From Naegleria gruberi (taxonomy: Eukaryota), in NCBI GenBank assembly GCA_000004985.1, contig GG738915.1: a DNA stretch of 64,000 bases; one strand, written 5' to 3'. The translations under genes and the position numbers were made by a program. Below are positions 1-56,339 of this stretch, piece after piece (the stretch's first letter is position 1; every line of letters begins with the position of its first letter). Under the pieces are notes generated by a model that had not been told where the DNA came from, did no database searches, and saw only the letters and a program-made list of their open reading frames with translations.

Positions 1-356
1 AGCCAAACCCAAACCCAAACCCAAACCCAAACCCAAACCCAAACCCAAACCCAAACCCAAACCCAAACCCAACCCAAACCCAAACCCAAACCCAAACCCA
101 AACCCAAACCCAAACCCAAACCCAAACCCAAACCCAAACCCAAACCCAAACCCAAACCCAAACCCAAACCCAAACCCAAACCCAAACCCAAACCCAAACC
201 CAAACCCAAACCCAAACCCAAACCCAAACCCAAACCCAAACCCAACCCAACCCCAACCCAAACCCAAACCCAAACCCAAACCCAAACTCAAACCCAAACC
301 CAAACCCAAACCCAAACCCAAACCCAAACCCAAACCCAAACCCAAACCCAAACCCA
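1..356. repeat. Telomere-type hexamer array (CCCAAA)n, about 59 units, C-rich strand reading 5'->3' from the window start (G-strand TTTGGG). Minor variants are CCCAA/CCCCAA at about 241-260 and AAACTC at about 286-294
   Basis: Direct reading shows a perfect 6-nt periodicity of cccaaa. The orientation is as expected for a left chromosome end. A degenerate telomere-like tail (ctaaaccc, accctagccc) continues to about 410. Confidence 0.9.
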
Positions 357-956
357 GTTCTAAAATAGAATTCTTCTAAACCCAACCTTCAAACCCTAGC
401 CCAAAATTATAAACTTATTCAAATATCATTAAATTTTATATCATTCGATAGGAAATGATGAGTAGAACAACGTGGTATATTTAGTTTTTCAATTTATAAA
501 ATATTAACTTTGTAAATAATGTCAGATTAAAATTTCTAAAATGAAACTATAGGAAGAATGATAATTTCAAAATCCTTTAATGAGATTATATAGTATATAT
601 CATCATTAACAACATTCATAATCACTTTCATATCAAATTTCTAAAATTCAAGTCTGTAGACATAAAAGTATGAAGTGAAAAGGGAAGTTGTGAGGTACAA
701 TAGGTCAATAATAACTTCTGAGTTTCTCATCAAAGCATATTATATCCTGATATGAAAATGTTCCATTTGATGAGTAAACATCGAATATCAAATTTATTTT
801 GACATTTATATTTAAAGATTTCTTCCCTCAACCATCATATGGTAAACTATGATGAAAGGATGAAATCTTGAAAAAGGACCTCTATTGAAACTTTACCAAT
901 ATGATTTAGATGACCTATAATAATGTAGAATTCAATTTCATATCATANNNNNNNNN
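357..956. repeat. Subtelomeric unit, copy A (unique AT-rich sequence immediately internal to the telomere array; truncated by the N gap)
   Basis: Bases 357 to about 790 are roughly 90% identical to 3881-4309 (copy B), with the same order of motifs: ttctaaaatagaattcttctaaaccc ... gaaatgatgagtagaacaacgtg ... gagtttctcatcaaagcatat. Confidence 0.75.
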
Positions 957-3510
957 NNNNNNNNNNNNNNNNNNNNNNNNNNNNNNNNNNNNNNNNNNNN
1001 NNNNNNNNNNNNNNNNNNNNNNNNNNNNNNNNNNNNNNNNNNNNNNNNNNNNNNNNNNNNNNNNNNNNNNNNNNNNNNNNNNNNNNNNNNNNNNNNNNNN
1101 NNNNNNNNNNNNNNNNNNNNNNNNNNNNNNNNNNNNNNNNNNNNNNNNNNNNNNNNNNNNNNNNNNNNNNNNNNNNNNNNNNNNNNNNNNNNNNNNNNNN
1201 NNNNNNNNNNNNNNNNNNNNNNNNNNNNNNNNNNNNNNNNNNNNNNNNNNNNNNNNNNNNNNNNNNNNNNNNNNNNNNNNNNNNNNNNNNNNNNNNNNNN
1301 NNNNNNNNNNNNNNNNNNNNNNNNNNNNNNNNNNNNNNNNNNNNNNNNNNNNNNNNNNNNNNNNNNNNNNNNNNNNNNNNNNNNNNNNNNNNNNNNNNNN
1401 NNNNNNNNNNNNNNNNNNNNNNNNNNNNNNNNNNNNNNNNNNNNNNNNNNNNNNNNNNNNNNNNNNNNNNNNNNNNNNNNNNNNNNNNNNNNNNNNNNNN
1501 NNNNNNNNNNNNNNNNNNNNNNNNNNNNNNNNNNNNNNNNNNNNNNNNNNNNNNNNNNNNNNNNNNNNNNNNNNNNNNNNNNNNNNNNNNNNNNNNNNNN
1601 NNNNNNNNNNNNNNNNNNNNNNNNNNNNNNNNNNNNNNNNNNNNNNNNNNNNNNNNNNNNNNNNNNNNNNNNNNNNNNNNNNNNNNNNNNNNNNNNNNNN
1701 NNNNNNNNNNNNNNNNNNNNNNNNNNNNNNNNNNNNNNNNNNNNNNNNNNNNNNNNNNNNNNNNNNNNNNNNNNNNNNNNNNNNNNNNNNNNNNNNNNNN
1801 NNNNNNNNNNNNNNNNNNNNNNNNNNNNNNNNNNNNNNNNNNNNNNNNNNNNNNNNNNNNNNNNNNNNNNNNNNNNNNNNNNNNNNNNNNNNNNNNNNNN
1901 NNNNNNNNNNNNNNNNNNNNNNNNNNNNNNNNNNNNNNNNNNNNNNNNNNNNNNNNNNNNNNNNNNNNNNNNNNNNNNNNNNNNNNNNNNNNNNNNNNNN
2001 NNNNNNNNNNNNNNNNNNNNNNNNNNNNNNNNNNNNNNNNNNNNNNNNNNNNNNNNNNNNNNNNNNNNNNNNNNNNNNNNNNNNNNNNNNNNNNNNNNNN
2101 NNNNNNNNNNNNNNNNNNNNNNNNNNNNNNNNNNNNNNNNNNNNNNNNNNNNNNNNNNNNNNNNNNNNNNNNNNNNNNNNNNNNNNNNNNNNNNNNNNNN
2201 NNNNNNNNNNNNNNNNNNNNNNNNNNNNNNNNNNNNNNNNNNNNNNNNNNNNNNNNNNNNNNNNNNNNNNNNNNNNNNNNNNNNNNNNNNNNNNNNNNNN
2301 NNNNNNNNNNNNNNNNNNNNNNNNNNNNNNNNNNNNNNNNNNNNNNNNNNNNNNNNNNNNNNNNNNNNNNNNNNNNNNNNNNNNNNNNNNNNNNNNNNNN
2401 NNNNNNNNNNNNNNNNNNNNNNNNNNNNNNNNNNNNNNNNNNNNNNNNNNNNNNNNNNNNNNNNNNNNNNNNNNNNNNNNNNNNNNNNNNNNNNNNNNNN
2501 NNNNNNNNNNNNNNNNNNNNNNNNNNNNNNNNNNNNNNNNNNNNNNNNNNNNNNNNNNNNNNNNNNNNNNNNNNNNNNNNNNNNNNNNNNNNNNNNNNNN
2601 NNNNNNNNNNNNNNNNNNNNNNNNNNNNNNNNNNNNNNNNNNNNNNNNNNNNNNNNNNNNNNNNNNNNNNNNNNNNNNNNNNNNNNNNNNNNNNNNNNNN
2701 NNNNNNNNNNNNNNNNNNNNNNNNNNNNNNNNNNNNNNNNNNNNNNNNNNNNNNNNNNNNNNNNNNNNNNNNNNNNNNNNNNNNNNNNNNNNNNNNNNNN
2801 NNNNNNNNNNNNNNNNNNNNNNNNNNNNNNNNNNNNNNNNNNNNNNNNNNNNNNNNNNNNNNNNNNNNNNNNNNNNNNNNNNNNNNNNNNNNNNNNNNNN
2901 NNNNNNNNNNNNNNNNNNNNNNNNNNNNNNNNNNNNNNNNNNNNNNNNNNNNNNNNNNNNNNNNNNNNNNNNNNNNNNNNNNNNNNNNNNNNNNNNNNNN
3001 NNNNNNNNNNNNNNNNNNNNNNNNNNNNNNNNNNNNNNNNNNNNNNNNNNNNNNNNNNNNNNNNNNNNNNNNNNNNNNNNNNNNNNNNNNNNNNNNNNNN
3101 NNNNNNNNNNNNNNNNNNNNNNNNNNNNNNNNNNNNNNNNNNNNNNNNNNNNNNNNNNNNNNNNNNNNNNNNNNNNNNNNNNNNNNNNNNNNNNNNNNNN
3201 NNNNNNNNNNNNNNNNNNNNNNNNNNNNNNNNNNNNNNNNNNNNNNNNNNNNNNNNNNNNNNNNNNNNNNNNNNNNNNNNNNNNNNNNNNNNNNNNNNNN
3301 NNNNNNNNNNNNNNNNNNNNNNNNNNNNNNNNNNNNNNNNNNNNNNNNNNNNNNNNNNNNNNNNNNNNNNNNNNNNNNNNNNNNNNNNNNNNNNNNNNNN
3401 NNNNNNNNNNNNNNNNNNNNNNNNNNNNNNNNNNNNNNNNNNNNNNNNNNNNNNNNNNNNNNNNNNNNNNNNNNNNNNNNNNNNNNNNNNNNNNNNNNNN
3501 NNNNNNNNNN
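957..3510. other. Assembly gap (2554 N)
   Basis: A run of n. All ORFs spanning it in the track are artefacts. Confidence 1.
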
Positions 3511-3880
3511 TAACCCAAACCCAAACCCAAACCCAAACCCAAACCCAAACCCAAACCCAAACCCAAACCCAAACCCAAACCCAAACCCAAACCCAAACCC
3601 AAACCCAAACCCAAACCCAAACCCAAACCCAAACCCAAACCCAACCCAAACCCAAACCCAAACCCAAACCCAAACCCAAACCCAAACCCAAACCCAAACC
3701 CAAACCCAAACCCAAACCCAAACCCAAACCCAAACCCAAACCCAAACCCAAACCCAAACCCAAACCCAAACCCAAACCCAAACCCAAACCCAAACCCAAA
3801 CCCAAACCCAAACCCAAACCCAAACCCAAACCCAAACCCAAACCCAAACCCAAACCCAAACCCAAACCCAAACCCAAACC
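3511..3880. repeat. Second (CCCAAA)n array, about 61 units, same orientation as the first
   Basis: Direct reading. It is followed by copy B of the subtelomeric unit, so this is either an interstitial telomere block or a tandem telomere-subtelomere unit. Confidence 0.9.
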
Positions 3881-4309
3881 CAATTCTAAAAATAGAATTC
3901 TTCTAAACCCAATGTTCAAACCCTAGCCCAAAATTATAAACTTATTCAAATATCATTAAATTTTATATCATTCGATAGCTAATGATGAGTAGAACAACGT
4001 GTTATATTTAGTTTTTCAATTTATAAAATATTAACTTTGTAAATAATGTCAGATTAAAATTTGTAAAATGAAACTATAGGAAGAATGTTAATTTCAAAAT
4101 CCTTTAATGAGATTATATAGTCTATATCATCATAAACAATATTCATAATCACTTTCATATCAAATTATAAAAGTTCATGTCTGTAGATATAAAAGTATAG
4201 AGTGAAAAGGGAAGATGTGAGGTAAAAGAGGTCAACAATAACTTTTGAGTTTCTCATCAAAACATATTGAATCCTGACATGAAAATGTTCCATTTGGTGA
4301 GTATACATC
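3881..4309. repeat. Subtelomeric unit, copy B (truncated by a 50-N gap at 4310-4359)
   Basis: About 90% identical to 357-790. Confidence 0.75.
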
Positions 4310-4359
4310 NNNNNNNNNNNNNNNNNNNNNNNNNNNNNNNNNNNNNNNNNNNNNNNNNN
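4310..4359. other. Assembly gap (50 N) inside the subtelomeric EGF-repeat gene
   Basis: n run. Confidence 1.
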
Positions 4360-6379
4360 AGTAAGATGTTTCATTCATAGAAATATTATTAAAAGTAATG
4401 TTACTAATAATTGTGCTATTTTGTGGTATAGTAACATTACAACTTAATCCAGTGAAACTCTCTTTGCACTCACATGTATCATTCATTGTACAATTACCAT
4501 TTCCTGAGCAGACAGAACTATTACTATTCAGAACACCAAAACACGAAACTAGTAAATAAATTTGTGAGGACTCAGCAGAGACGTTACTGTTAATAATGGT
4601 ATTGTTGATAGTGGGTTGAAGGAGGGGAGAATTTACATCCGTTTCATTAGTGTTGGAAGTTGAGTTATGAGAAGAGTTATTGTTCATTTTGGTTTCGTTG
4701 AAATAAGCAGTATCATTTAAAGAAATATAGTTCAAACTACTGTTGGTTATTGATTTGCTAGGGTTCATTTTGGTTTCATTAAAGTGCACTGTATCATTTA
4801 AGGAAGTGGTATTTACAGTATTATTACTCAAAGAAATATAATTTGAAGTGCCATTAGTTATTGATATGTTGCTCATTATAGTTTCGTTAAAGTAAGATGT
4901 TTCATTCATAGAAGTATTATTAAAAGTAGTGTTAGCAAAAGAAATATTGCTAATAATTGTACTATTTTGTAAAATTGTCACATTACAACTTAATCCAGTA
5001 AAATGAGATTTACACGAGCATGTATCATGCATTGTACAGTTACCATTTCCAGAACATACTGAACTATTGGTATTCAGAATACCAAAACAATTATAGAAGA
5101 AGCAATCATTTCCAAAATATCCACTTTCACAGGTACAATTGTTATAAAAGCTGCAATCTCCATGACCTGAACAAACCTTTGAATTATTAGAAGAAACGCC
5201 ATAACAGGAAGTAAAGTGACATTCATCACCAGTGTAACCATCATTACAGGTGCAATTATTTGGGGATGAACATACACCACTTGAGGAACAAACTTGAGAC
5301 GAACTACCGAGAATTCCATAACAATTATGGTGTTGACACTCATTTCCAAAAAACCCACTTTGACAAGAACAATTATTTGGAGATGAACACAATCCTCTGG
5401 AAGAGCAGACACTGGAATTGTCAAAAGAAATTCCAGAACAGTCGTAATTTTGGCAATTATTGCCTGTAAAATCAAATTCACAATGGCAATCGTCTACTTC
5501 AGCACATATACCTCTTCCTAAACAAACTTCACTTGAATTAGAATAAATATCATTACATGTTGTAATTGAGCAATTAGAGCCATAATAATTTAAATAACAT
5601 GAACATGAATTATAATCAGTGCATGAACCATGTCCTGAGCAAACATCAGAATTTGTTTTTGGTACAGAGTAGCAATCAAAATTTTCACAATCAGGTCCAT
5701 AATAATTTGAAACGCAAGAACATGAATTATAATCTACACATATTCCTTTTCCTGAGCAAACTTCACTTGAATTAGAATAAATATCATTACATGTTGTAAT
5801 TGAGCAATTAGAGCCATAATAATTAGATGAGCAGCTACAAGTGTTATATGATGCACAAGTACCATGATTAGAACAGCCAGTTGTAAGAGAATTTGAATAT
5901 CCATTACAAGTCCAAGAAGAACAATTAGCACCTGAGTAACCATATGAACACGAACAATTGTTAACATCTATACAATTTCCATTTGAATTACAAACAGTGG
6001 AGTCATCAGATCTAATCGAGTAACAATAGGGTAGATTACAATAACCTCCACCATAATTTGCATCACACACCATGTAAATTTTTCTGAGTTCATCACTTTC
6101 TGCAATTAACATCAAGTTGTTATCGCTGGAAAAAGTCAAACCTACAAGTGTGTTGAACTTGGTATAAGCCAGAGTTTCTCCATCATTATATGTTCCAGCA
6201 CTATTACCAGCATAGGACGTTATTGTACCAGTGTTAGCATTGGCAGTGGCAGGTGTGAAAAGTTTAAGAGCACCACTCTCAGTGTAGTATACATTACCGT
6301 TGTCGTTTACATAAAAATCTTTGATGGCTACAGAAGAGGTCTTATTAAGTTAGTTTAAATAGTTCAATCAAAACTTACA
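4360..6379 (-). CDS. Partial gene for a secreted/surface-type protein. An N-terminal region is followed by about 10 tenascin-type EGF repeats (C-x-C-x2-G-[YF]-x-G-x2-C). Then come two near-identical copies of a segment (SVCSGNGNCTM.DTC.CK.SFTGLSCNVTI) embedded in a very NxS/T-rich (N-glycosylation-sequon-rich) Ser/Asn/Thr region. The 3' end is lost in the 4310-4359 gap, and the 5' end is lost in the 6386-6435 gap.
   Basis: The ORF at 4232..6139 in the track begins with TTG, not ATG. The same frame stays open upstream to a canonical minus-strand intron (GTAAGT at about 6378-6373 ... TCTGTAG ending at about 6328), which joins a further upstream exon fragment at 6379-6385. An internal 200-nt DNA duplication lies at 4360-4560 versus 4880-5090. 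The part of the track ORF at 4232-4309 lies in the subtelomeric repeat and is probably not coding. Confidence 0.6.
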
Positions 6380-6385
6380 GTAAAA

Positions 6386-10275: not shown

Positions 10276-13200
10276 TTAAACCGATTTCAGTTCAACTCCT
10301 TGTTTTGATTCATTACTGGTTTCTGGTTTCATTTTCTTAACAACATACCAACCAACAATTCCCAATACAATAAAGGCAAAAATGATAAAGCAAATAATCA
10401 AGAAAGACCACAAAATCCAGAATAAATCAGAGATTCTCTTTGGAGTTTCAGGATTAACCGGTTTTTCAATTGGAATAGATGATAAAATACCAACTCTAAC
10501 ATTTTCTGAACATTCACAGTTTCCATAATTAGTATTGAAAGAGAATTTACATGAAGAAGCATCAATGACTTGACCGTTTGTAACTTGAATGCATGAATAA
10601 GTTGCCTTATCATTAAAGGTTTGTGTAAGTGGCAAGGAGTGAGTAATTGGTGAGGAATAGTTTGTAATAGATGTTGAGAATTTAATTTCAGACAAATCTG
10701 AAACAATAGTATTAGTTTTACCATCTTGAGGAGTAATAATTTGAGAAACATCCTTAATAATCATCCAAATGTAATTGACTGGCTTTCTGAGAGACACGCT
10801 TTGTAACCTTTGAGAAACAGTTGAAGGAAGGGTCAATGAAGTTTTACTTTCTGTCAATACTTGAGAATCAAAAGTATTCTTAAATTGCTTGTTGAATTGA
10901 TGAACTGCAAAATTAGTTTCAAACTTGGAAGAAGATTGACCAACAAGAACCTTTCTTGAAAGTAATGATGCCAACATGTGACAACTTTCCATCAATTCTG
11001 AATAATCATAAGAAGGTAAAGTCTTTAAGTACGAATGCATTGAGTTGAGTGATGAAATTAACAGCTTATCAGCACCGACTTCAACTTGGAATGATGGAGA
11101 ATTTTCAGCATCATCCAAGGTTGACCTGATAATATTCAAACTCTTATTATAGAGATTGGCAGAAACGTCACTCTTCAATAAAGATTCAACACCGAACATT
11201 ATGTTAGTAAAGAACTTTCCAGTTGTCTTTTCTCCATTTTCAGACTTGACTTGTTGAGAAGAGAAGAATGCAGTTGCCAAATCTTGATTAATTCCATTCA
11301 AAATTTCATAATCTTTCTTTGTCATTCTACAGTCAGATGTTGTGTAATCTTCCTCACATACACATTTTTCTTTAATCAAAAATCCATGACCAGAACAATC
11401 AGTCCTTACACTTCTTGATGTAGTTGTGAGGAAGGAATCTCTCATTCTCTGGAAAGTTCTTGAAATGGTTGCAGAGTTGAAAACAGATCTAGCATAATCA
11501 CCAGATGGTAATAATGAGGAGATGGCATTCCATTTTGTAATGTAATCCTTGACTTCCATGACATTTTCTACGGACGGAGCTGTAATTTGAACTGATTGTT
11601 TGGAAAGAGTTGTTGCAAGTGTTTCAGTATCAATAACCTTAACATAAAGTTCAAGATTATTGCCAGAATTTGGAGTTGGAAGTTTTTGATACAATTCTTC
11701 ATCCTTGGATAAGGAAATAAAAGAGCCTGAGAAATCATCAATGAAACCATATTCGAAAGCATAAGTCTTCTTATCGTTTTGACAATTTTCACAATTGAAA
11801 TTAAAGATTGTGGTCAAGGCAACACCAGAAGTTGGACTAATGGCACAACTACATGCCTTTGGAGGTCTGTTAACAGAGAAGGAATAAGAATATGATGTCT
11901 TTTGATTATTTCTATTATCCAAGACAGTTAATGAAATGGTATTAGAACTACCTTCATCCAAATATTGGGTATCCAAAATGAGAGAATTTGACAATGATGG
12001 ACTGCTGCTCATAGGTGATGTCAATACAGCATCAATGGCCTTATCATTCAATAACCATGTTCTAGTGATGAATTGATCAATATTTGAATCACCGTTAATA
12101 GTGACAACCAATTGAACGCTGACATAATCTCCCTTATTTACCTTTGAGGAAGATACTTGAACAACAGAGATCAAAGGTGGCATGATGACATTCTCTGCTT
12201 GTTGTGGTAAAATCAAATCAACTGATGATTGAACAGATCTACTTCCCTTTTGAATATTAAGGCTAATTCTAACATTTTCTGCTGAACCAACAATTGACTT
12301 TTCAATCTTGTATTGTTCAAGAACACCTTGAGATAAGTAATTTACAACAGCAGCTGGACAAGCAGTGTTTGTAACAGTATTCACACATGTCCAAGAATAA
12401 GTTGGTTGAACATTTTCAGACTCAGGATCAGTGAAATCTAATCCAATGGTACTGTATTGAGGAGTAGAATCTAAAACATACATGTTCATTGAGAGTGCTT
12501 GAGCTACAGTGTTGATATTGACCTCAGCCGTTGAAACTCTGTCAATATTAGAAGTATCGAAAGCAGAGACTTTGAAAACATATTGAATATTTCCAATGGT
12601 ATTGAATTTGGTAATCTTTAAATTCTTGAATGAATCAACTGCGAATTCTACTTGAGGACCACTTATTTGTTTCCATGTGTAGTCAATATTTGCAGCAGAG
12701 TCCATGTATGTTGGAATGGAAAGCTTCTTCTTGACTGAAATTGGAACATCACTAGTCTTGACAGTAATTGTACTTCTTTCATATAAACCATCAATGGAAA
12801 CAACTGGAACAGCATACGCAAGTTTTGTGAAACTGACTTGAATCTTATCAACCAATGAATAAACTTGACTGGTTACGGCCAATTCAAATTTATGGAAACC
12901 AGCATTCATACCAGAATAGCTAACATTCAATTTACTTGGAGAAACAAGAGATGTATCCAACAAGTTTTGAAGTGCTACCTTATTAGGTGCTAACAATACA
13001 GTCCATTTGAAATTTAATGCCTTTCTATCAGGTGAATAACTTTCAGAAGCATCAATTAAAACATCTTCACAACTTCCATAAGTTTCCTTAGCTCCAGAGA
13101 TTGTGGCAATTGGTCTTTTTGGTGATAAAGCAGCCTGGACGGTAAATGCCAAATATTGAACCGCGGTATTATTTGATTCAAAGTATAAATTATTCAAAGA

Positions 13201-16200
13201 GATACTATCACCTGCCTTCAATTTGTAATCAGAATCAAGTTCAATTGAGAATTCAAAGGTTTCCTTGTTAGTCCAGTAACATTTTGGTTTGGTTCCAAGA
13301 AGATCAACACTCTTCAACAACTTGTTACAATCAAGAATCATACTATTGGTATATGTAGAAGAATAAGATGCAGGTGCAACAACCTTAAATTTCAAACCAG
13401 TCAAATCATCCATAAAAAGAACTGGTCCAATAATCTTGGTTGAACACAATTCACCATAAACTCCATCAGCACATGAGGAACAAGATTCACCCTTCCAGAA
13501 ACCCTTCTTGTTATCAGCAAAACAAGTACATTGTTCAAGATCATTACAATAACCATTTCCACTGCAAGTTGTTGTGGCATTACATTTAACCAAACTACTA
13601 CACATAGAACCAATGTATGGAGAAACACATACTGAACAAACTGAACCAGTCCAAAAACCCTTGACAGCTGTACTATCACAAACACAAGTATTAAAGTCTG
13701 TACATTTACCATGTCCAGAACAAACAGATGAAGCATTAGAAGAAATGCCACCACAAGTGAATTGAGCACAATCACTTCCAGAATATCCAGGTTGACAAGA
13801 ACAATGATCGAAAGAATCACATCTACCTTTTCCAGAACAAGCTGATGCAGTTGAGGAAATTCCAAAACAATTAAATTGGCTACAATCATTACCAAAATAT
13901 CCAGCTGAACAGGAGCAATTATTTGGAGAATTACAAGTACCATTACCAGAACAAACAAAGGCATTGCTTGGGGCAATACCAAAACATTTGAAAGAACTGC
14001 AATCTGATCCACTGTATCCACTTGAGCAGGAACAGTTATTTGGGGAGATACAACTACCGTGATTTGTACATACTGATGCACTAGTTGAGGCAGTTCCATA
14101 ACAATCAAATTTTCGACAATCATTTCCGTAGTATCCACTTGAACAGGAGCAGTTATTTGGTGAGATGCAACTACCATGTCTAGAACAAACTGAACCACTT
14201 GTTGAGACAGTTCCATAACAATCATATTGAGTACACTCGTTCCCATAATATCCAACTAAACACGAACAGTTATTTGGTGAGAGACAACTACCATGTCTAG
14301 AACAAACTGAACCACTTGTTGAGGAAGTTCCATAACAATCATATTGAGTACACTCATTTCCATAATAGCCTGATAAGCATGAGCAATTATTTGGGGAGAT
14401 ACAACTTCCGTGATTAGAACATGATGATGTATTTGTGGAGGCAGTTCCATAACAATCAAATTGGCTACAATCACTTCCATAGTATCCAGAGACACATGAA
14501 CAATTATTTGGTGACAAGCAACTACCATGTCCTGAACATGCTGAACTTGTTGATACATTTCCATAACAATCAAATTGACTACAATCATTTCCGTAATAGC
14601 CTGATGAACATGAACAATTATTTGAGGCAACACAACTACCGTGTCCAGAACAAACTGAACCACTCGTGAATATAGTTCCATAACAATCAAATTGGCTACA
14701 ATCATTTCCATAATATCCAACTAAACATGAACAGTTATTTGGGGAGATACAACTCACCATATCTAGAACAAACTGAACCACTTGTTGAGGAAGTTCCATA
14801 ACAATCATATTGAGTACACTCATTTCCATAATAGCCTGATAAGCATGAGCAATTATTTGGGGAGATACAACTTCNNNNNNNNNNNNNNNNNNNNNNNNNN
14901 NNNNNNNNNNNNNNNNNNNNNNNNNNNNNNNNNNNNNNNNNNNNNNNNNNNNNNNNNNNNNNNNNNNNNNNNNNNNNNNTGCCATAACATTGGAAAGAGC
15001 TGCAATCTGATCCACTATATCCAGCTAAGCATGAGCAGTTATTTGGTGAGAGACAGGCACCGTGTCCAGAACATACTGAACCATTTGTTGAGGCAATTCC
15101 AAAACAATCAAATTGACTACAATCATTTCCATAGTGGTCATTAGAGCATGAGCAATTATTTGGTGAGATACAACTTCCTTGACCAGAACAAGCTGATGAA
15201 GAAGTAAATAAGGTACCAAAACATTCATATTGGCTACAGTCACCAAAGTAACCTGAAGCACATGAACAATTATTTGGGGCAATGCAACTACCACGACCAG
15301 AACAAACTGATGAACTTATACCTGGGGCAATTCCATAACATTTGAATAAACTACAATCTTCACCACTGTATCCAGATGAGCAGGAACAACTGTTTGGAGC
15401 AACACAACTTCCATGTCCTGAGCAAACTTTGCGGTCAGTATTCAAATAATCACCACATGTAAAAAGTTGACAGTTTGAACCAGAGTAAGTGGTAGATTCG
15501 CAGTCACAAGTATCAGTTTTTGTACATGTTCCGTGACCTGAGCATACAGTAGAGTTGTCACCTGAAATTCCATTACATGTTGGATATTGACAAGTATTAG
15601 GAGCAACACATGTGGCATATGTTGGACATGCTTCTGGATGTGTGGCCACGATACCATTACACTTTGGAGTTTTACATTCACTACCTCCCCACAAAACACC
15701 ATAATTTGTCAAATCATTTACAGAAGGAAAACCGGTAATTGACTCGGCATTTAACGTAAAGCAATGATCTTAGAAAATTGTTTGTGAACAAAGTTAAAGC
15801 TTAATTACTTACCAGTGGAGGAATAAACAACCAAATGGCCATCGACTTGAAGAACAAATTTAAAAGGTCCAGTATGGGTACCACAATCATTTTTTGGATC
15901 AAGAGTGGTAATCAAAGAAGCACCATCCATAATCTTTAGAGAACCATCATCTTGGCTGAGCACAAGCTTGTAGCCACCATTTTTTGCAGGACCCACTGAT
16001 CTTTGAAAGTTTTTCATGAAAACACCCTCATAAAATTGAGAAAGACTTCCATCATTGTTCAATGTAAGTGCAATTTTTCCATCAGCAGATGTTAATGTGT
16101 TCGTTGCGAGGAGAATTGGCGACTCAGCAGTAAGGGCTGTAGAAGGGGAAATATCAACACAAAGACAATTATCATTTCCGAAGCAAATATTACCGCCACA

Positions 16201-18184: not shown

Positions 18185-18256
18185 GGGGACCAGTGGGAAT
18201 CGAACCCACGGCCTCTCGCACCCAAAGCGAGAATCATACCACTAGACCATGGTCCC
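18185..18256 (-). tRNA. tRNA-Pro (anticodon TGG)
   Basis: Reverse complement GGGACCATGGTCTAGTGGTATGATTCTCGCTTTGGGTGCGAGAGGCCGTGGGTTCGATTCCCACTGGTCCCC. It forms a 7-bp acceptor stem, the anticodon loop TTTGGGT, and a T-arm GTGGGTTCGATTCCCAC. It is near-identical to canonical eukaryotic tRNA-Pro. Confidence 0.85.
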
Positions 18257-26216: not shown

Positions 26217-26558
26217 TTTTTTTTAGTTATGAAAATTGATGGAAGGAAGAAAGAATTTTGGATGACGACTTTGTATTGGGAAGGAATGGATTTTGATAAA
26301 TGTTTTCCAATCCAAGAATTTCAAGGAACATTGTTACAGTATTCCAATTAATTTCATTATGTTTTCTTAATTCTATTTTGAAATGAAGCTTCTATTTTTG
26401 CAAAATAGAAGTAGTGCGAAAATGAAATTTTAGGGTTGGGAATTCTTAACTCTAAAAATGGCAGGTTACTAAATTCAATTCTTGATTATTCCACAATTTT
26501 CACTCAATAAATAGCGAACATTCTTCTTATTCAAGATTTTCAAAAAAAAAACTAACAA

Positions 26559-28658
26559 ATGCTTCCCAGCAACAAGCAATCTTCTTCAAACCAAGAGGTT
26601 TCTATGAGCAAACTCCATGCTCAGTCCAACAAGTACAGAGAAATCAATGATGAACTCTCTTCAATTCTTCAAAATTTTGAAGATCTTCGTCCACCAAACA
26701 TTGTTGTTGTTGGTGAGCAAAGTGCTGGTAAAAGTTCTGTTCTCGAATACTTGAGTGGTGTTAAATTCGTAACAGGTCAAGACATGGTCACTCGTTGTCC
26801 ACTCCAATTAAGAATGAATCATTCATACGGTGAAGAAGCTAAAGCTATTGTTAAGAGTGCTAAAATTGAAAGCCCAATTGAAATTCCCAATCCAGAGTCT
26901 GAAGATGGAGCCAAACTTTTGGATGATACTATCAGAAATATTACTCAACTTCACATTGGAAATGAAACAGTTGCCAATGAGCTGATTGAAGTTCAAGTCA
27001 TCTCTCCACACGTTCCAGATTTAACTCTTGTCGATTTACCAGGTTTGATAACTAAAAGCTCTAAAGATAATCCGTATCTTGCTGAGAACATTAGGGAACT
27101 TGTTAGAAAGAATATGACTGAGAAGGATTGTATTCTTATCGTTGGAGATGGTGGAAGAGACTTACAAACTATTGTCGGGTTCACAGAAGCTGAAGAAGTT
27201 GACAAGGATCAAAAAAGAACGCTCTGTGTTCTTACCAAAGTTGACAAATGCATCAATGATAAGGAAATCAGACAAAAATTAATCAAGTCTCTCAAGAATG
27301 AGGGATCTATTTCCCTATTGCATGGTTTTGTCGCCTTGAAGAATCGCACTAGTGACGAGAAGCACCTTTCCATTGAAGAATGTGAAAAAATTGAAAGCTC
27401 ATTGTTAGATTCTTTGGATGCACCTGATGGAAGTAAGGGAAGAGCTGCACTTATTGAAAAGTTGACTCAAATTCAGAATGAGCACTTACAAGAAAGTATT
27501 CCAAAGCAAAAAGAGTTGCTTCAACAAGAACTTATCAAAATTGAGTCCCAACTTGAAAACACCTCCAATAATATTCAACAATTTTATGCTTATGGAGATG
27601 AGGCGTTGATAAGAAGCTATGAAACTAGTATTTCTAGTTTAGTTTCTGCATTCAAAGACATTTCAGTTAATACAGAAATACTTGACATGTCCTCTTCTGA
27701 AGATTTGAAGAAGTCAGTAACTTCAAATCCATTAAGCTTGTCTGTTTTCTCCTCTGTTACCGAAGCATTATCCGAAGAGATATTAACCATATTGACCTCT
27801 TCTAAAACTCAAATCAATAATTATTTTGAAGCCATTACTAAGTTCATTGACAAAACAAGTGGTTTCCCTGGTCTCCCTGATCTCTACCAACCAACAATAC
27901 TGTTAAAACTTGCAAATTTAGAAATGGCAAATGTACGTAAGGTTGTTGATAAATATGTTTTGGAAGCATGGGAAAGAGTGAAACGTATGTTGTTAAAACA
28001 TCTTGTTCCAAAGCAGATAGGATCTTCCAAGCTTGAAAAAATGTTGAAAACTGAATTGAAGCAACATTATGATTCTGTATTCAAGACAACCAAGAAGATC
28101 ATTGATAAGGTATTTAGAAGAGAGATTCAAAGAACATTCACCATGGATAAATCGTATGCAGTTAGATCTCAGCTCATCAGACAATTATGCAAATTGAAAG
28201 GTAAGCAACAAGAAAGCTATGAAGCGGAAACCTTGAAAGAACAACTGTCACAGTTTGGCTATTCAGATGATATTACCTTTGTGTCTTATCTCCAAGATTT
28301 ACCTGCTAAGAGTTCCAAACAGAGTGCTGCTATTGAGGTATTGATCAAATTCAAGTCTTATTTGAATATTGCTGCTACAAGAATCGCTGATCAGGTTTCT
28401 CAAATATTGTATGATGAATTAATCATAAGCCCTTGTGAAGAAATGCCTCAATGTCTTTCAGTTAAGAGAGTGAACAATAAGAGGGTTTCCAATTTTCCAA
28501 TTGAACCAATAGAACTTCCAGGTGTTCCAATCCAGCGTATTATTGATGTTATGAAACCAAGCAAATCAGAATTGGATTCTTATCGCAAGCTCTTAGAAAA
28601 ACATCAAGCAGTCAAGAAGGCCATCGAAGTAATCGATAGATTGGACTGGGAATATTAA
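26559..28658 (+). CDS. Dynamin-family large GTPase (699 aa)
   Basis: G1 motif GEQSAGKSSVLE, DLPG (DLTLVDLPGLI) and TKVD (G4), followed by middle and GED-like helical regions. ATG at 26559, preceded by an A10 tract. Confidence 0.85.
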   Translation: MLPSNKQSSSNQEVSMSKLHAQSNKYREINDELSSILQNFEDLRPPNIVVVGEQSAGKSSVLEYLSGVKFVTGQDMVTRCPLQLRMNHSYGEEAKAIVKSAKIESPIEIPNPESEDGAKLLDDTIRNITQLHIGNETVANELIEVQVISPHVPDLTLVDLPGLITKSSKDNPYLAENIRELVRKNMTEKDCILIVGDGGRDLQTIVGFTEAEEVDKDQKRTLCVLTKVDKCINDKEIRQKLIKSLKNEGSISLLHGFVALKNRTSDEKHLSIEECEKIESSLLDSLDAPDGSKGRAALIEKLTQIQNEHLQESIPKQKELLQQELIKIESQLENTSNNIQQFYAYGDEALIRSYETSISSLVSAFKDISVNTEILDMSSSEDLKKSVTSNPLSLSVFSSVTEALSEEILTILTSSKTQINNYFEAITKFIDKTSGFPGLPDLYQPTILLKLANLEMANVRKVVDKYVLEAWERVKRMLLKHLVPKQIGSSKLEKMLKTELKQHYDSVFKTTKKIIDKVFRREIQRTFTMDKSYAVRSQLIRQLCKLKGKQQESYEAETLKEQLSQFGYSDDITFVSYLQDLPAKSSKQSAAIEVLIKFKSYLNIAATRIADQVSQILYDELIISPCEEMPQCLSVKRVNNKRVSNFPIEPIELPGVPIQRIIDVMKPSKSELDSYRKLLEKHQAVKKAIEVIDRLDWEY

Positions 28659-37069: not shown

Positions 37070-37497
37070 TTTTTTCTGTTGTGAAGTTTGTTATCCAAAT
37101 GTCAGAAATTTAGACAGTTAAGGGCCTTAAAGATTTCCAAATTTTGACAATTACCATTTTTGAAGTTTGTTTTGAAAAAAGAAAAAAACAACAGCAAGAA
37201 AATATATTGAATGCACCAATGTGTGAATATTGAAATAATTTATCATTGGAAAGATGTGAACGGTTTCGAATAAACTTTACAATAATTTTTTTCTATTTTT
37301 TCATTAATTTCTTCAGAAAAATTCAATAGTGTGGTGTTGAAATATTGCAATTGTAAAGAGACCAATGCTATTAATAATAATTTACTTGAATTGTTTAAAA
37401 TCTATTTGAAAATTGTTAAGATTTCGGTAAATGACCAAATATAGAAAATCCATAAAAGAAATTTTCCAAAAATTACAAAAATTTGAATAAAAAAAAT

Positions 37498-40400
37498 ATG
37501 AAAAAATCAAACCAATCCATAGAATTGAGTTTATTCCATCCAAACTCTCTTTCTCATGAGAATCGAGTCCAAATTTCTCATGCACTTCGAAATATTTCTC
37601 CAAATATAGTAATTGGACAAAATGAAGGTGAATTTGATTGTTACACAGATGAAATTCTTCTCTCATCTGAATTACCAGATGTGTTTAGTGTAGATTCCAT
37701 GTTTCTTCCTCATCTAATCGATAGAGGACTCATTCAGCCAATTCAAAAAGATTATTTGAATTCTCTTTGTAATCCTGACGAAATGTTTGAGTTTACAAAA
37801 CAATCCTGTCAATTTAATGGCGACTGGTATGGAATACCAATGTTTGTCCATGGATACATTGTCATGCAACGTGAATTTGATAAGGAAATCAAGTCACTTC
37901 AAGCACTTGCTGAAAAACATGGTTATGACTCAATTGTTTTTCCAGATATGGCAGCTTCTAGCTCCATGTTAATAGTCAGATCGTTTGCTTTGGATCAACA
38001 GGGTGCTACTAATTCCAATAGAATTCAAATCACTAGAGAAAACTTTCCACTTTCAAAGATGGACGAAATTTCACCTTCCTATTTGAAGAATTTCAGAACT
38101 GTGCAAAATGCGACCAAGATTGTGAGTGCACAAGAGTTGGTGGATACATGTAGGTTGGGAGAATGCATTCCACATGCTGCCTACGTTGGAAGATTGGAAA
38201 ATGTTTGTGGACTCAAGTCAAAATTCGAGCAGGGAAATTGGACTTTGACAGTTCTTCCTTTTTTGGAAGGTAAGGCAATGACTACGACTGTTAGTGTGTT
38301 GGTATTCAATGCTAATTTGAAAGGAGAGAGATTGAAACAAGCAATGGAATATCTGAAAGGTTTTTTCACTTTGGAAAAAGTGGACGAAATGTTGGAACAT
38401 GGTTTAATGATACCTTGCGATAAATCCAGATTGAGAAGATGGTCTGAAAAGAGTACCATCTATAGAGATGTTCTCTACTCTCTAGAAAATGTAGAAAAAA
38501 AGATTATTAACATTTCATTACATCCAGATTTGGACAATCGAGAAATTGTCAAAATGTCAAATATTCTCAAACCTCATTTACAACACATTGCTGTAGGTAC
38601 ACTTCGTTGCTTAACTGCAGACATGGTAGAGAAAGCCAAAAGTGGACATCCTGGCATGCCAATCGGAATGTCAACCATCGCTTTCGTATTATGGAAATAT
38701 TTCTACAGAGCTTCAGGTAAAGATCCAACATGGATCAATCGAGATCGATTCATACTCAGTAATGGACATGGTTGTGCACTTCAATATGCATTACTTCATT
38801 TAACAGGATATGAATCCATGCCCATGGAACAGTTACAGAAATTAAGAACTTTGGATTCGAATACTCCTGGTCATCCCGAATGGTTCCATACAGATGGAGT
38901 GGATGCTACGACAGGTCCACTTGGACAGGGTATGTGCAATTCTATTGGAATGGCAGTCGCTGAATGTCACTTGTCCAAGAGATTTAACAGAAATGAGTTG
39001 AAATTATTTGATCATTACACGTATGTCTTTTGTGGAGATGGTGATTTGATGGAAGGCATGTCCACAGAGGGTATGTCATTTGCAGGACATCAACAACTCA
39101 ACAAAGTCATTGTTTTTTATGATGACAATAGAATTACCATAGATGGAAGTACGGATCTAACATTCACTCAGGACACAGCCATGGTTGCAAGAGGATTGGG
39201 TTGGCATGTCATTGAAGTTCATGATGCCGACTCTAACTTGCTAAGAATCAAGGAAGCAATCGAAACAGCTCGTCTTGTAACCAACAAACCATCCATGATT
39301 ATATGCAAGACAACCATTGGTTATGGAACTAAACAGGAAGGAACTGCCAAAGCTCATGGAACAGCATTGGGTGAGGATTCTGTTAGAATGTTGAAGAAAT
39401 TCTGTGGATTTAATCCAGACGATCATTTTATTATTCCTTCCATTGTGAGGGAAGAATTTGAAAAGATTTCTGATAGAAATGCCAAATATTTGCAAGAATG
39501 GAATGATATGACACAAAAATATGCAAATTCACACAAATCTGAATGGGAAATGTTGATGAGAATGAGAAGGGGTGAAATAGAGGACTCTCTCGAGAAGTTT
39601 CTTCCAAAATTTGAAGATGAAAAGTCAATGGCCACTAGAATGTGTTCACACGAAGTGTTAAATGGAATATTCAAGATTATTCCAGCAATGGTTGGAGGAT
39701 CAGCTGATTTAACACCATCCAATTTGACAGATATTGAAGGACAGAAGGATTTTCAACCTCATTCCAGAGAGGGAAGATATTTCAGGTTTGGAGTTAGAGA
39801 ACATGGAATGTGCTCCATTTCGAATGGAATTCTCTATCATGGACTGTTGAGAACCTATGTAGGGACTTTCCTTAATTTTGCTTCGTATGGATTGGGAGCT
39901 ATTCGTTTGAGTGCACTAGCTCAATTGCCAAATATTTTTGTGTTGACACATGACAGTATTGGCTTGGGAGAAGATGGACCAACTCATCAACCTATTGAAG
40001 TATTAACAGCTCTGAGAGCTATTCCTAACATGAATGTGATTAGACCAGCAGATGGTAGAGAAACAAGTGGTGCCTATCTATCAGCCATCAAAACTCTCAA
40101 AACTCCAACATGTCTAGCTCTGTCAAGACAAAACGTTCCACCAATCAAGAATTCCAGTATCGAAAAGACACTCAAAGGAGCCTATATCTTGGAGCAAGAT
40201 GAAAACCCTGATGTTATTTTAGTGGCCACAGGCTCAGAAGTTCAACTCATTGTTGAAGCCAAGAAACAATTGAACGAAAGACAAATTAATGTAAGAACTA
40301 TCAGTATGCCAAGTTGGGAACTCTTTGATGCACAGCCACTGGAATATAGACAGGAAATATTCACAGCTGGCATTCCATGTCTGTCAGTTGAAGCTGCTTC

Positions 40401-40602
40401 TATCATTGGATGGAGTAAATACAGTCATCACCAAATTGGAATGCTTAATTTTGGAGCTAGTGGAAAGTATACAGATGTCTATGAAAAGAATCAGATTACA
40501 ACAAGAAATGTTGTTGAATCTTCTATCAAGTTAATCGATAGATATAAGAAATCAGCTCCAAGTTTAATTCTTGCTCCATTGAAGGAAGAAAAAGCGTTAT
40601 AA
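37498..40602 (+). CDS. Transketolase (residues from about 365 onward) with a contiguous in-frame N-terminal extension of about 350 aa. The extension weakly resembles bacterial periplasmic solute-binding proteins (LPDVFSVDSMFLPHLIDRGLIQPI ... NGDWYGIPMFVHGYIVMQRE).
   Basis: Transketolase motifs: SGHPGMPIGMSTIAFVLW, RDRFILSNGHGCALQYALLHLTGY, TPGHPE, TTGPLGQG, the thiamine-pyrophosphate-binding GDGDLMEG, and the C-terminal domain. The whole 1039-codon ORF is uninterrupted. The ATG is preceded by an A9 tract. Confidence 0.85.
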   Translation: MKKSNQSIELSLFHPNSLSHENRVQISHALRNISPNIVIGQNEGEFDCYTDEILLSSELPDVFSVDSMFLPHLIDRGLIQPIQKDYLNSLCNPDEMFEFTKQSCQFNGDWYGIPMFVHGYIVMQREFDKEIKSLQALAEKHGYDSIVFPDMAASSSMLIVRSFALDQQGATNSNRIQITRENFPLSKMDEISPSYLKNFRTVQNATKIVSAQELVDTCRLGECIPHAAYVGRLENVCGLKSKFEQGNWTLTVLPFLEGKAMTTTVSVLVFNANLKGERLKQAMEYLKGFFTLEKVDEMLEHGLMIPCDKSRLRRWSEKSTIYRDVLYSLENVEKKIINISLHPDLDNREIVKMSNILKPHLQHIAVGTLRCLTADMVEKAKSGHPGMPIGMSTIAFVLWKYFYRASGKDPTWINRDRFILSNGHGCALQYALLHLTGYESMPMEQLQKLRTLDSNTPGHPEWFHTDGVDATTGPLGQGMCNSIGMAVAECHLSKRFNRNELKLFDHYTYVFCGDGDLMEGMSTEGMSFAGHQQLNKVIVFYDDNRITIDGSTDLTFTQDTAMVARGLGWHVIEVHDADSNLLRIKEAIETARLVTNKPSMIICKTTIGYGTKQEGTAKAHGTALGEDSVRMLKKFCGFNPDDHFIIPSIVREEFEKISDRNAKYLQEWNDMTQKYANSHKSEWEMLMRMRRGEIEDSLEKFLPKFEDEKSMATRMCSHEVLNGIFKIIPAMVGGSADLTPSNLTDIEGQKDFQPHSREGRYFRFGVREHGMCSISNGILYHGLLRTYVGTFLNFASYGLGAIRLSALAQLPNIFVLTHDSIGLGEDGPTHQPIEVLTALRAIPNMNVIRPADGRETSGAYLSAIKTLKTPTCLALSRQNVPPIKNSSIEKTLKGAYILEQDENPDVILVATGSEVQLIVEAKKQLNERQINVRTISMPSWELFDAQPLEYRQEIFTAGIPCLSVEAASIIGWSKYSHHQIGMLNFGASGKYTDVYEKNQITTRNVVESSIKLIDRYKKSAPSLILAPLKEEKAL

Positions 40603-52481: not shown

Positions 52482-53741
52482 GTATGGTATATAATAGTTG
52501 AATATTTAAAACAAAACTACTTGATAAAATTAACAACAAGTATGAACCTACTCAAAATTCAATATATCAATATTTGAAAAATTAATGTTCTCTCGGGATC
52601 AACAACACTGATGCCAAATGCCAGCTGTCAAAGTAGTTTTTTTTTCTTCGTCATCTTGATTACTAGCACTCTGCACTCGCCAACTTCAATATTTTGGCCC
52701 TTCGTCTAAAAGCCTATTGGTTTGTTATTGCGTTGACACTTGAAAATTTCACACTCTAGTGGGTTGTCAATAACCCTAATTCGGAAGGCAACTTTTTGGG
52801 AAGATTTGAAATTCCACATCTTAAGGCTATTGCGAATATTAACAATGGACATGGAATTAAACTCCAATACATTATTATTATTGAATGATTACAATTTGTA
52901 ACACATCCTTTGAAAACTTTCCAATAGTTTGAAAATATTGGAAAGTTTTCGAATTGACTTTTCGATGTGTTGATATCAAATAAAGAATGTACATTGAAAC
53001 AAATGAAAAAAAGAGGATGGATGGTCAATGAATGTGTAATCCTTTCTACTGAGATTGAAAACGTGCTCTTCATGGTCGATTTTCGAATAACCTTGATTGT
53101 AATGTTATCCTAAATGGCAAATGGATGAACCATCACATCAAAGATCTGAAGATTTTAAAGCAAGTTGGTGTCTTCGTCAAAATGGGTATTTTACTATTAT
53201 CTTTTTAAAGAATCAACATGTCATGTTTGAAAATGTTGTCATGTGACATTTTGGTGAAGAAAACAATTATTGTACAGTAAATTCTCAAACACCGTTCACA
53301 GTAGGAAAACCACGTCATCTTCTTTAATACTGTAAATTATTATCTTTTCACACTTTACAATAATGCTGCACCAGCCCTACAATCCTTTCGTATAATATTT
53401 GACACACAATCAACAGACCCTATCCAAATCAACTCAGAGCACAAGCCAACTTGGATTTACACTCATTTTATTAGGATCATGCACCGTACTACTTTCGAAT
53501 AGTTTTCTCCTATCAATGAACTTGTTGAGCACATGACTATTACGGATAATTTACTAGTTTCTGTAGAGCACTTATTGTAAAACAGTCATTTTACTGTAGT
53601 GTGGTAATGGTTAGAAAATGACCAAGAAAAGATAATTGGTAGAGTTGAGCACGTTTCGGTGGTGAAATTTTGCATTTTACCTTTTTGGGATGGTGTTCAC
53701 TTCCGAGGTGAAAATTTTTGATGTTCGTAGATTTTCAAATA

Positions 53742-53812
53742 CAAATGTGCTCGTCTCGTGGTGTAATGGTAGCATAGTGGACTTTGAATCCATTGACGGA
53801 GGTTCGATTCCT
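53742..53812 (+). tRNA. tRNA-Gln (anticodon TTG), copy 1
   Basis: CGTCTCGTGGTGTAATGGTAGCATAGTGGACTTTGAATCCATTGACGGAGGTTCGATTCCTCCCGAGACGG. The GGTGTAATGGT.AGCA D-arm and the CTTTGAA anticodon loop are typical of eukaryotic tRNA-Gln. 7-bp acceptor stem. Confidence 0.85.
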
Positions 53813-53928
53813 CCCGAGACGGTAAACGTGGCGAGCCATAAGAATTTTGCATCGATACTTTTATTTGCTGCTATCAAGGTTTTATGATTACAATTTATTA
53901 TTTGCTCGATTTCCTGTTGCTTATTTAC

Positions 53929-55704: not shown

Positions 55705-55775
55705 TGCGTCGACCGGGAATTGAACCCGGGTCACGGCGATGGCAACGCCGTATTCTACCACTAAACCATCGACGC
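55705..55775 (-). tRNA. tRNA-Gly (anticodon GCC)
   Basis: Reverse complement GCGTCGATGGTTTAGTGGTAGAATACGGCGTTGCCATCGCCGTGACCCGGGTTCAATTCCCGGTCGACGCA. Close to canonical eukaryotic tRNA-Gly-GCC. Confidence 0.85.
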
Positions 55776-55887
55776 TTCTCATGTCCTTCTATAATAATAC
55801 ATAACTGAATATAAATGGTATTTGAGCTAGGTCAAATTTAATTTCTTGAAGAAATCCACAAACAAAAAATTTAAAAATTGTTATGGC

Positions 55888-55958
55888 TCGCCACGTTTAC
55901 CGTCTCGGGAGGAATCGAACCTCCGTCAATGGATTCAAAGTCCACTATGCTACCATTA
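55888..55958 (-). tRNA. tRNA-Gln (anticodon TTG), copy 2, in inverted orientation relative to copy 1
   Basis: The 71 nt are identical to copy 1, as is 8 nt of the 5' flank and about 19 nt of the 3' flank. Confidence 0.85.
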
Positions 55959-56339
55959 CACCACGAGACGAGCACATTAACTGTTCAAAATCTTCGAATA
56001 TCATTGATTTTCAATGATAATCTTAGAAAACCTCCAATGTGCAAAATTTCTTATTAACCACATTTCCAATCAAACTCAAATTATACAACCAATATCGTTT
56101 TGTCCAAATATGCCCCTTCTCTTTTTTTTTACATCTTTCTAAGAAAGCTGCCTTAATAACCTAGAACTGCTTATTTGACCTCCAAATTTGAGCCACTGTA
56201 CATCTTTTACTGTATCGTAAGATAGTTTCCTTATTCGATAAGCTTCACAGGCCGAAATCAATAGACAATAAGCGTTCTTTCTTATTAAAAACAATACAAT
56301 TACTTTTTTTCAAACTGTAGATGAAGGCATTACAACAAT

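What the first reader, a model, noticed from the sequence alone, without database searches (positions are those of the whole stretch)
1..4310. Telomere array, subtelomeric unit, then a second telomere array and a second copy of the unit
A (CCCAAA)n block of about 360 bp is followed by a unique element of about 430+ bp. After a 2.5-kb gap, the same structure recurs (3511-3880 and 3881-4309) in the same orientation, with about 90% identity between the unique parts. So this is either a genuine interstitial telomere block embedded in tandem subtelomeric repeats (a substrate for end recombination or healing) or an assembly join of two chromosome ends. The roughly 10% divergence between the units argues against a trivial duplicate read. 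The hexamer itself (G-strand TTTGGG, with occasional CCCAA/CCCCAA units) is an uncommon telomere type; taxon assignment would need a search.
Basis: seen in the sequence. Interest (0 to 1): 0.55.

Follow-up and report, generated by a model that had tools for sequence, protein, structure and literature searches.

The report
Two Naegleria chromosome-end contigs scaffolded in tandem
The two telomere-plus-flank blocks are real sequence from the amoeba Naegleria gruberi, but each is a short contig bounded by runs of N in a draft scaffold, so the "internal telomere" is most likely two versions of a chromosome end placed one after the other by the assembler, which is ordinary.

Summary
There are (CCCAAA)n arrays at 3-356 and 3512-3883. 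Each is followed by the same AT-rich non-coding unit (357-782 and 3884-4309), 93% identical, with the telomere/unit junction in the same register.

The "2.5-kb gap" is a run of 2563 N (948-3510). The second array starts at the first base after it, and the second unit ends at a 50-N run (4310-4359). No non-telomeric base is joined to the outer side of either array, so the sequence never shows the second array to be internal.

The organism is Naegleria gruberi: an ORF at 26.5 kb is 100% identical to an NCBI N. gruberi protein. TTTGGG was already reported as its candidate telomere (Fulneckova 2013). Naegleria is described as a heterozygous diploid.

The supposedly internal array is purer than the outer one (1 variant unit against 5 variant sites), although the flanks differ by 7%.

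Best reading: two diverged chromosome-end contigs, either haplotypes or paralogous ends, lined up by the scaffolder. This is a known class of false duplication. A real yeast-Y'-like internal tract is not excluded (about 0.13).

I could not reach other N. gruberi scaffold ends or the reads. Interest is low.

The parts
3..356 (+). Telomere array 1. The C-rich strand (CCCAAA)n reads inward, so the G-strand TTTGGG runs 5'->3' toward the sequence end. It has 59.5 units and five variant sites (CCCAA at 68, 241 and 246; CCCCAA at 251; CTCAAA at 287). Bases 1-2 (AG) are non-telomeric.
   Evidence: TRF; unit census; sequence
357..947 (.). Telomere-adjacent unit, copy 1 (591 bp, 25% GC, non-coding). Bases 357-782 are homologous to copy 2. 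Bases 783-947 are a tail with no counterpart because copy 2 is truncated. The first ~50 bp hold degenerate telomere-like motifs (AACCC/CCCAA/CCCTA at 379-404).
   Evidence: alignment; no ORF longer than 47 aa in either copy; no Rfam hit; composition and motifs
948..3510 (.). Run of 2563 N: a sized scaffold gap between contig A (1-947) and contig B (3511-4309). No sequence is known here.
3512..3883 (+). Telomere array 2, same orientation as array 1, 62.2 units, with one variant unit (CCCAA at 3640). It begins one base after the N run (3511 = T).
   Evidence: TRF
3884..4309 (.). Telomere-adjacent unit, copy 2 (426 bp, 25% GC), 93% identical to 357-782. The junction with the array is in the same register (…CCCAAACCCA|A/G|TTCT). 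It is cut off by the next N run.
4310..4359 (.). Run of 50 N. The same length occurs at two other gaps in the window, so it is probably a placeholder or minimum gap value rather than a measurement.
4360..6385 (-). Contig C, the first coding sequence inward of the end. It is a long minus-strand ORF of EGF-like repeats whose 3' end is lost in the 50-N gap. It is not present as an identical NCBI gene model, and the best N. gruberi paralogue is 41% identical.
   Evidence: ORF list; Pfam EGF_2 8e-35 and EGF_Teneurin; homologue search

Best explanation
The window is the start of a draft scaffold of Naegleria gruberi. It contains two short contigs. Each consists of a terminal telomerase-type array (G-strand TTTGGG, about 360 bp) followed by the same kind of AT-rich, non-coding telomere-adjacent sequence. 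The two contigs are diverged versions of a chromosome end. Most likely they are the two haplotypes of this end in a heterozygous diploid strain; less likely, one is a paralogous end from another chromosome. At 7% divergence the assembler could not merge them. Both carried paired-end links into the same neighbourhood, so the scaffolder laid them one after the other, separated by N. That made the inner telomere array look interstitial and the flank look tandemly duplicated.

Shown here: the arrays, the 93% unit pair, the N runs on the outer side of array 2 and after unit 2, the species, and the purity of array 2.

Inferred: that both arrays are true termini, that the juxtaposition comes from scaffolding, and that the pair is allelic rather than paralogous.
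For: (1) Array 2 begins at the first base after a 2563-N run, and array 1 begins at base 3 of the window. No read-derived base joins non-telomeric DNA to the outer side of either array.
(2) Contig B is only 799 bp with N on both sides, and contig A is 947 bp. [quoted passage not shown] (3) The organism is N. gruberi: ORF 26556-28655 is 100% identical to NCBI 'Mx protein [Naegleria gruberi]' on a 260,018-bp record. Naegleria is described as 'mainly a heterozygous diploid', with heterozygosity reported for N. gruberi (PMC9928731).
(4) Array 2 has 1 variant unit in 62, fewer than the outer array's five variant sites. If it had sat internally, unrepaired by telomerase, for the time in which the flanks accumulated 30 differences per 426 bp, about 13 changes would be expected in 372 bp, giving P(<=1) = 3e-5.
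(5) A 372-bp internal array is shorter than a Sanger read. At 6-10x coverage, 2-4 spanning reads would be expected, with P(none) 0.02-0.16 (coverage and read length are assumed). No contig carrying a left flank was placed in the gap.
(6) Both arrays have the orientation of a left chromosome end, and their variant-repeat patterns differ, so they are two independent real arrays.
(7) TTTGGG in terminal positions was already identified as the N. gruberi candidate telomere (PMC3622300).
(8) For allelic rather than paralogous: both contigs were tied to the same scaffold, and the adjacent EGF-repeat ORF has no close paralogue among N. gruberi proteins (best 41% identity).
Against: No reads, mate pairs or read depths are available here, so the placement cannot be re-evaluated. 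The A-B gap is sized (2563), not the 50-N placeholder. Taken at face value, that puts contig A about 3.4 kb further out than contig B, which is what a true tandem arrangement or a structural difference between haplotypes would give. 7% divergence is high for alleles and is below the >95% identity used to call haplotype duplicates in PMC2864568. The purity argument fails if an internal tract formed recently by capture of a diverged unit from another end. I could not check whether the unit occurs at other N. gruberi scaffold ends, so allelic versus paralogous stays open. If the N runs were masking rather than gaps, the argument from contig edges would fall.
Confidence: 0.78

Rival explanations
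1. A genuine interstitial telomere tract. The chromosome end would carry two tandem copies of a roughly 3.5-kb subtelomeric element, each headed by a telomere tract, as with tandem Y' elements separated by internal TG1-3 tracts in budding yeast. The inner tract would be a substrate for end recombination or healing.
For: Both blocks have the same orientation, and the junction is in the same register. The gap between them is sized at 2563 N rather than the 50-N placeholder, which is consistent with a repeat period of about 3.5 kb. Divergence between the units rises with distance from the telomere (7 against 22 differences in the two halves, Fisher p=0.006), a pattern expected where ends exchange sequence by recombination.
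Against: Nothing but N lies on the outer side of array 2. The inner array is purer than the outer one despite 7% flank divergence (P about 3e-5 under equal decay), so it could only be very recent. A 372-bp tract should have been bridged by Sanger reads (assumed coverage). No homologue of contig C or of the 783-947 tail can be shown in the gap. None of the 120 metagenomic loci carrying (CCCAAA)8 has two well-separated arrays with duplicated flanks.
Confidence: 0.13
2. The scaffolding artefact is the same, but contig A is a paralogous end of a different chromosome, drawn into this scaffold through the shared telomere-adjacent unit or through repeats in the EGF-repeat genes. The unit would then be a subtelomeric family present at several or all chromosome ends. 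This is a sub-case of the best explanation, and its probability is counted inside that 0.78.
For: 7% divergence is more typical of paralogous subtelomeres than of alleles. The gradient of divergence away from the telomere fits homogenisation between ends. Copy 1's tail (783-947) has no similarity to contig C. The region inward is rich in internal repeats (117-bp arrays) that can mislead mate-pair links.
Against: Only two copies exist in this 64-kb window. A contig from another chromosome would normally link to that chromosome's own interior. The neighbouring ORF has no close paralogue among N. gruberi proteins. This could not be tested against other scaffold ends.
Confidence: 0.28
3. One locus assembled twice because of sequencing errors or low-quality reads (a trivial duplicate).
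For: Both contigs are short and lie at a scaffold end, where coverage is low.
Against: There are 29 substitutions and 1 indel in 426 bp, spread over the unit and including 13 transitions and 16 transversions. The variant-repeat patterns of the arrays differ. This is far above the Sanger consensus error rate.
Confidence: 0.02

Closest known systems
Naegleria gruberi telomere repeat TTTGGG (candidate telomere reported by Fulneckova et al. 2013, Genome Biol Evol, PMC3622300)
   Same: The same species and the same hexamer. The arrays lie at sequence or contig ends with the G-strand pointing outward. That paper found the motif in this same published genome assembly.
   Different: Nothing differs for the motif. 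The paper does not describe the telomere-adjacent unit in its main text, and its supplementary table was not available.
False segmental duplication from split haplotypes in paired-end draft assemblies (Kelley and Salzberg 2010, PMC2864568)
   Same: A short contig strongly similar to a neighbouring contig, separated from it by gaps in one scaffold, in an organism described as a heterozygous diploid.
   Different: Identity is 93% in the unique part (95% over the whole 784-bp alignment including the arrays), against their thresholds of >95-96%. The defining mate-pair test could not be run. Here the duplicate happens to include a telomere, which is what makes the artefact conspicuous.
Budding-yeast subtelomeres: tandem Y' elements separated by internal TG1-3 tracts (established knowledge, recalled from memory, not tested here)
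   Same: On paper the layout matches: telomere tract, element, telomere tract, element, all in one orientation.
   Different: In yeast the internal tracts are joined to sequence on both sides, are short (tens to about 130 bp), and the elements encode a helicase. Here the inner tract is as long and as pure as a terminal one, has no known outer flank, and the unit is non-coding.
Paramecium macronuclear telomeres (mixed TTGGGG/TTTGGG; recalled from memory)
   Same: The TTTGGG hexamer, with an occasional CCCCAA unit.
   Different: Considered first and rejected. The window has long ORFs under the standard genetic code, a protein 100% identical to one from N. gruberi, and only one CCCCAA in about 120 units.

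Membership tests
Terminal telomere array of N. gruberi | Tandem array of the species' telomeric hexamer (TTTGGG/CCCAAA) | tested here: met
   TRF: 59.5 and 62.2 copies at 98-99% matches. The motif matches PMC3622300. Species assigned by a 100% protein match.
Terminal telomere array of N. gruberi | G-rich strand runs 5'->3' toward the end, and the array lies at the extreme end of the assembled sequence | tested here: met
   Both arrays read CCCAAA on the + strand and start at base 3 of the window and at the first base after an N run. For array 2, 'end' means the end of its contig.
Terminal telomere array of N. gruberi | Physically terminal on the chromosome (Bal31 sensitivity, or reads that end in the array) | not testable with these tools
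   No reads or wet-lab data were available.
Interstitial telomeric sequence between tandem subtelomeric elements (yeast Y'-type) | Non-telomeric sequence contiguous with the array on both sides | tested here: not met
   The outer side of array 2 is 2563 N. No determined base lies there.
Interstitial telomeric sequence between tandem subtelomeric elements (yeast Y'-type) | The element is repeated in full on both sides of the tract | tested here: inconclusive
   Only 426 bp are shared. Copy 2 is truncated by a gap, and everything after base 947 of copy 1 is unknown.
Interstitial telomeric sequence between tandem subtelomeric elements (yeast Y'-type) | The internal tract decays in step with its flanks (no telomerase renewal) | tested here: not met
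   One variant unit in 62, against about 13 changes expected from the flank divergence; P(<=1) = 3e-5. Escape clause: a very recent capture event.
Haplotype-split false duplication in a scaffold | A short contig highly similar to a nearby contig in the same scaffold, separated only by gaps | tested here: met
   Contigs 1-947 and 3511-4309 align at 95% over 784 bp including the arrays and at 93% in the unique part. N runs.
Haplotype-split false duplication in a scaffold | The sequenced organism is heterozygous | not tested
   Literature only: PMC9928731, citing Fritz-Laylin 2010. Not measured here.
Haplotype-split false duplication in a scaffold | Mate-pair distances fit better when the two contigs are superimposed, and each contig has about half the read depth | not testable with these tools
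N. gruberi is not in the gene-position index.

The most novel reading that the evidence does not exclude
The inner array is truly interstitial. N. gruberi chromosome ends would then carry tandem subtelomeric elements of about 3.5 kb, each headed by a long, pure TTTGGG tract recently acquired by recombination between ends. That would be a Y'-like, recombination-based end-maintenance architecture, the first subtelomere structure described in Heterolobosea.
Probability: 0.12. Interest if true: 0.4.

Novelty: already known. Interest (0 to 1): 0.14.

Why it matters
It matters little as biology and somewhat as quality control. The TTTGGG telomere of N. gruberi was already reported, and tandem placement of diverged haplotype contigs is a documented assembly error. 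The practical value is a warning: the draft N. gruberi scaffold should not be cited as evidence for an interstitial telomere or a tandem subtelomeric duplication. The pair does show that two N. gruberi chromosome-end sequences share a conserved non-coding telomere-adjacent unit of at least 430 bp, better conserved near the telomere. That unit could serve as a probe or PCR anchor for telomere-length and chromosome-end studies in this organism. Only if long reads proved the inner tract real would it become a modestly interesting first look at subtelomere architecture in Heterolobosea.

Tried and rejected
(1) Paramecium or another ciliate as the source. Rejected: long ORFs under the standard code and a 100% protein match to N. 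gruberi. A dictyostelid guess was also rejected.

(2) Fetching other N. gruberi scaffold ends through the look-up of encoding contigs. N. gruberi proteins P0001 and P0122 are not on record. N. lovaniensis is indexed, but the homologue found lies mid-contig (690 kb of 1.08 Mb) and tells nothing about chromosome ends.

(3) A metagenome scan for a conserved 21-mer of the unit gave 0 hits.

None shows similarity to the unit, and none has two separated arrays with duplicated flanks. Many are low-GC contigs with terminal arrays added to unrelated sequences, and others are GC-rich internal microsatellites.

(5) A coding or RNA function for the unit. There is no ORF longer than 47 aa, no tblastn similarity to the neighbouring EGF-repeat proteins, and no Rfam or tRNA hit in 1-4309.

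(6) Literature on Naegleria telomeres and subtelomeres. Only PMC3622300 names the repeat. The N. fowleri Nanopore paper and the pangenome paper do not mention telomeres. The Cell 2010 genome paper, the 2011 review and the mSphere 2021 paper are not held. The supplement of PMC3622300 is not held.

(7) Short sequence overlaps across the N runs, which would reveal negative gaps. Nothing meaningful was found.
Full report
**What is in the sequence**

Reading 1-5000 and running Tandem Repeats Finder confirms two hexamer arrays.
- Array 1: 3-356, 59.5 copies, 98% matches.
- Array 2: 3512-3883, 62.2 copies, 99% matches.

Both are written CCCAAA on the + strand, so the G-rich strand TTTGGG points toward the start of the window. 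No other such run exists in the 64 kb.

Array 1 has 53 canonical units and five variant sites: CCCAA at 68, 241 and 246; CCCCAA at 251; CTCAAA at 287. Array 2 has 60 canonical units and a single CCCAA at 3640.

Each array is followed by the same AT-rich sequence (25% GC). Bases 357-782 align to 3884-4309 with 29 mismatches and one indel in 426 columns, which is 93% identity. The array/unit junction is in the same register in both copies (…CCCAAACCCA[G/A]TTCT). The first ~50 bp of the unit hold degenerate telomere-like motifs. A self-comparison of the window finds no third copy.

The "2.5-kb gap" is not sequence. It is 2563 N (948-3510). The second unit ends at a 50-N run (4310-4359). Further N runs of 50, 105 and 50 bases lie at 6386, 14875 and 45270. 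The region therefore consists of:
- contig A: 1-947 (947 bp)
- a sized gap
- contig B: 3511-4309 (799 bp)
- a 50-N gap that looks like a placeholder
- contig C: 4360-6385

Each telomere array lies at the outer edge of its own contig. Not one determined base joins non-telomeric DNA to the outer side of array 2.

**Whose genome it is**

My first guess from the hexamer was Paramecium. That failed, because the window has many long ORFs under the standard code, up to 1582 codons. ORF 26556-28655 is 100% identical over its full length to NCBI "Mx protein [Naegleria gruberi]", carried on a 260,018-bp record. The telomere-proximal ORFs are EGF-repeat and REJ-domain proteins. Their best relatives are in Naegleria and Acrasis at about 40% identity.

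Fulneckova et al. 2013 searched this published genome and named TTTGGG as the candidate telomere repeat of N. gruberi (PMC3622300). The "uncommon telomere type" is therefore real but already on record. I found no paper in the library that describes Naegleria subtelomeres.

**Is the inner array interstitial?**

Four lines of evidence say probably not.

1. Contig edges, as described above.
2. Purity. An internal tract is not renewed by telomerase and should decay with its flanks. The flanks differ at 30 of 426 positions. With half of that on one lineage, about 13 changes are expected in 372 bp, yet array 2 has one (P(<=1) = 3e-5). It is also cleaner than the outer array.
3. Read length. A 372-bp tract is shorter than a Sanger read. 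For assumed 6-10x coverage and 650-750-base reads, 2-4 spanning reads are expected (P(none) 0.02-0.16). No contig carrying a left flank was placed in the gap.
4. Known artefact. This configuration is the textbook one for haplotype-split false duplications in paired-end assemblies. Diverged copies are assembled separately, both link to the same neighbourhood, and they are placed at adjacent locations (PMC2864568). Naegleria is described as mainly a heterozygous diploid, with heterozygosity reported for N. gruberi (PMC9928731).

**What keeps the real-ITS reading alive**

- The A-B gap is sized (2563), unlike the three 50-N gaps. At face value, contig A lies about 3.4 kb further out than B. This could be noise from a few long-insert links or a structural difference between haplotypes. 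It is also what a tandem repeat of about 3.5 kb would give.
- The purity argument fails if the outer copy was captured recently from another end, as in yeast Y' acquisition.
- 7% is high for allelic divergence.

I put this reading at about 0.13.

**Alleles or paralogous ends?**

This is open.

For alleles:
- Both contigs were tied to one scaffold.
- The neighbouring EGF-repeat ORF has no close paralogue among N. gruberi proteins (best 41% identity). That ORF itself is not annotated, so the evidence is weak.

For paralogues:
- The divergence level is high.
- There is a significant gradient: 7 differences in the telomere-proximal half of the unit against 22 in the distal half (Fisher p=0.006). 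This fits repeated homogenisation from the telomere inward between ends.
- The 165-bp tail of copy 1 has no similarity to contig C.

**What the unit is**

It is non-coding. No ORF exceeds 47 aa, there is no similarity to the neighbouring proteins, and there is no Rfam or tRNA match. It is best described as telomere-adjacent subtelomeric DNA beginning with degenerate telomere repeats. Whether it is present at all chromosome ends could not be tested:
- N. gruberi is not in the gene-position index.
- A metagenome scan for a conserved 21-mer of the unit found nothing.
- 120 metagenomic loci with (CCCAAA)8 show no similarity to it.

**Verdict**

The sequence features are real. The telomere motif and the species are known. 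The striking layout is most likely a scaffolding juxtaposition of two chromosome-end contigs (confidence about 0.78). Interest is low. The decisive test is simple: long reads, or the original traces and mate pairs, across 1-6.4 kb.

Noticed in passing
window 53709-53848 and 55874-56013: A 140-bp inverted repeat at 91% identity. It is explained by two tRNA-Gln(TTG) genes in opposite orientation (53751-53823 +, 55899-55971 -). tRNA-Gly(GCC) lies at 55705-55775 (-), and a separate tRNA-Pro(TGG) at 18185-18256 (-).
   Followed up: yes
window 13850-14872 (and 5499-5824): A 117-bp (39-codon) tandem repeat, 8.8 copies at 77% identity, lies inside a large minus-strand EGF-repeat/REJ-domain ORF (10279-15769). 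The 105-N gap at 14875-14979 sits at the edge of this array, so the repeat probably caused the assembly break. The telomere-proximal ORF in contig C has a related 117-bp repeat.
   Followed up: partly
window 37456-40599 (+): A single 1048-codon ORF combines an N-terminal thiaminase-I-like domain (residues 144-264) with a complete transketolase (N, pyrimidine-binding and C-terminal domains). This is an unusual fusion of a thiamine-related domain to a thiamine-diphosphate enzyme.
   Followed up: no
window 4360-6385 (-): The first ORF inward of the telomere (EGF-like repeats) has no identical protein in the database, although other window ORFs do. It appears to be unannotated in the public N. gruberi gene set, probably because gaps truncate it at both ends.
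   Followed up: partly
loci L003, L013, L019, L038, L039, L042, L050, L057, L059, L064, L069, L080 (contigs JAESGV01…): One metagenome assembly has many low-GC contigs (0.24-0.39) ending in correctly oriented (CCCAAA)n arrays that abut mostly unrelated sequences; a few ends share partial similarity. This suggests an uncultured eukaryote with TTTGGG telomeres, either a heterolobosean or a ciliate macronucleus. None resembles the N. gruberi unit.
   Followed up: partly
window 357-782 vs 3884-4309: Divergence between the two unit copies is not uniform: about 3% in the 213 columns nearest the telomere and about 10% in the next 214 (Fisher p=0.006). This suggests either constraint on, or recombinational homogenisation of, the telomere-adjacent part.
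   Followed up: partly
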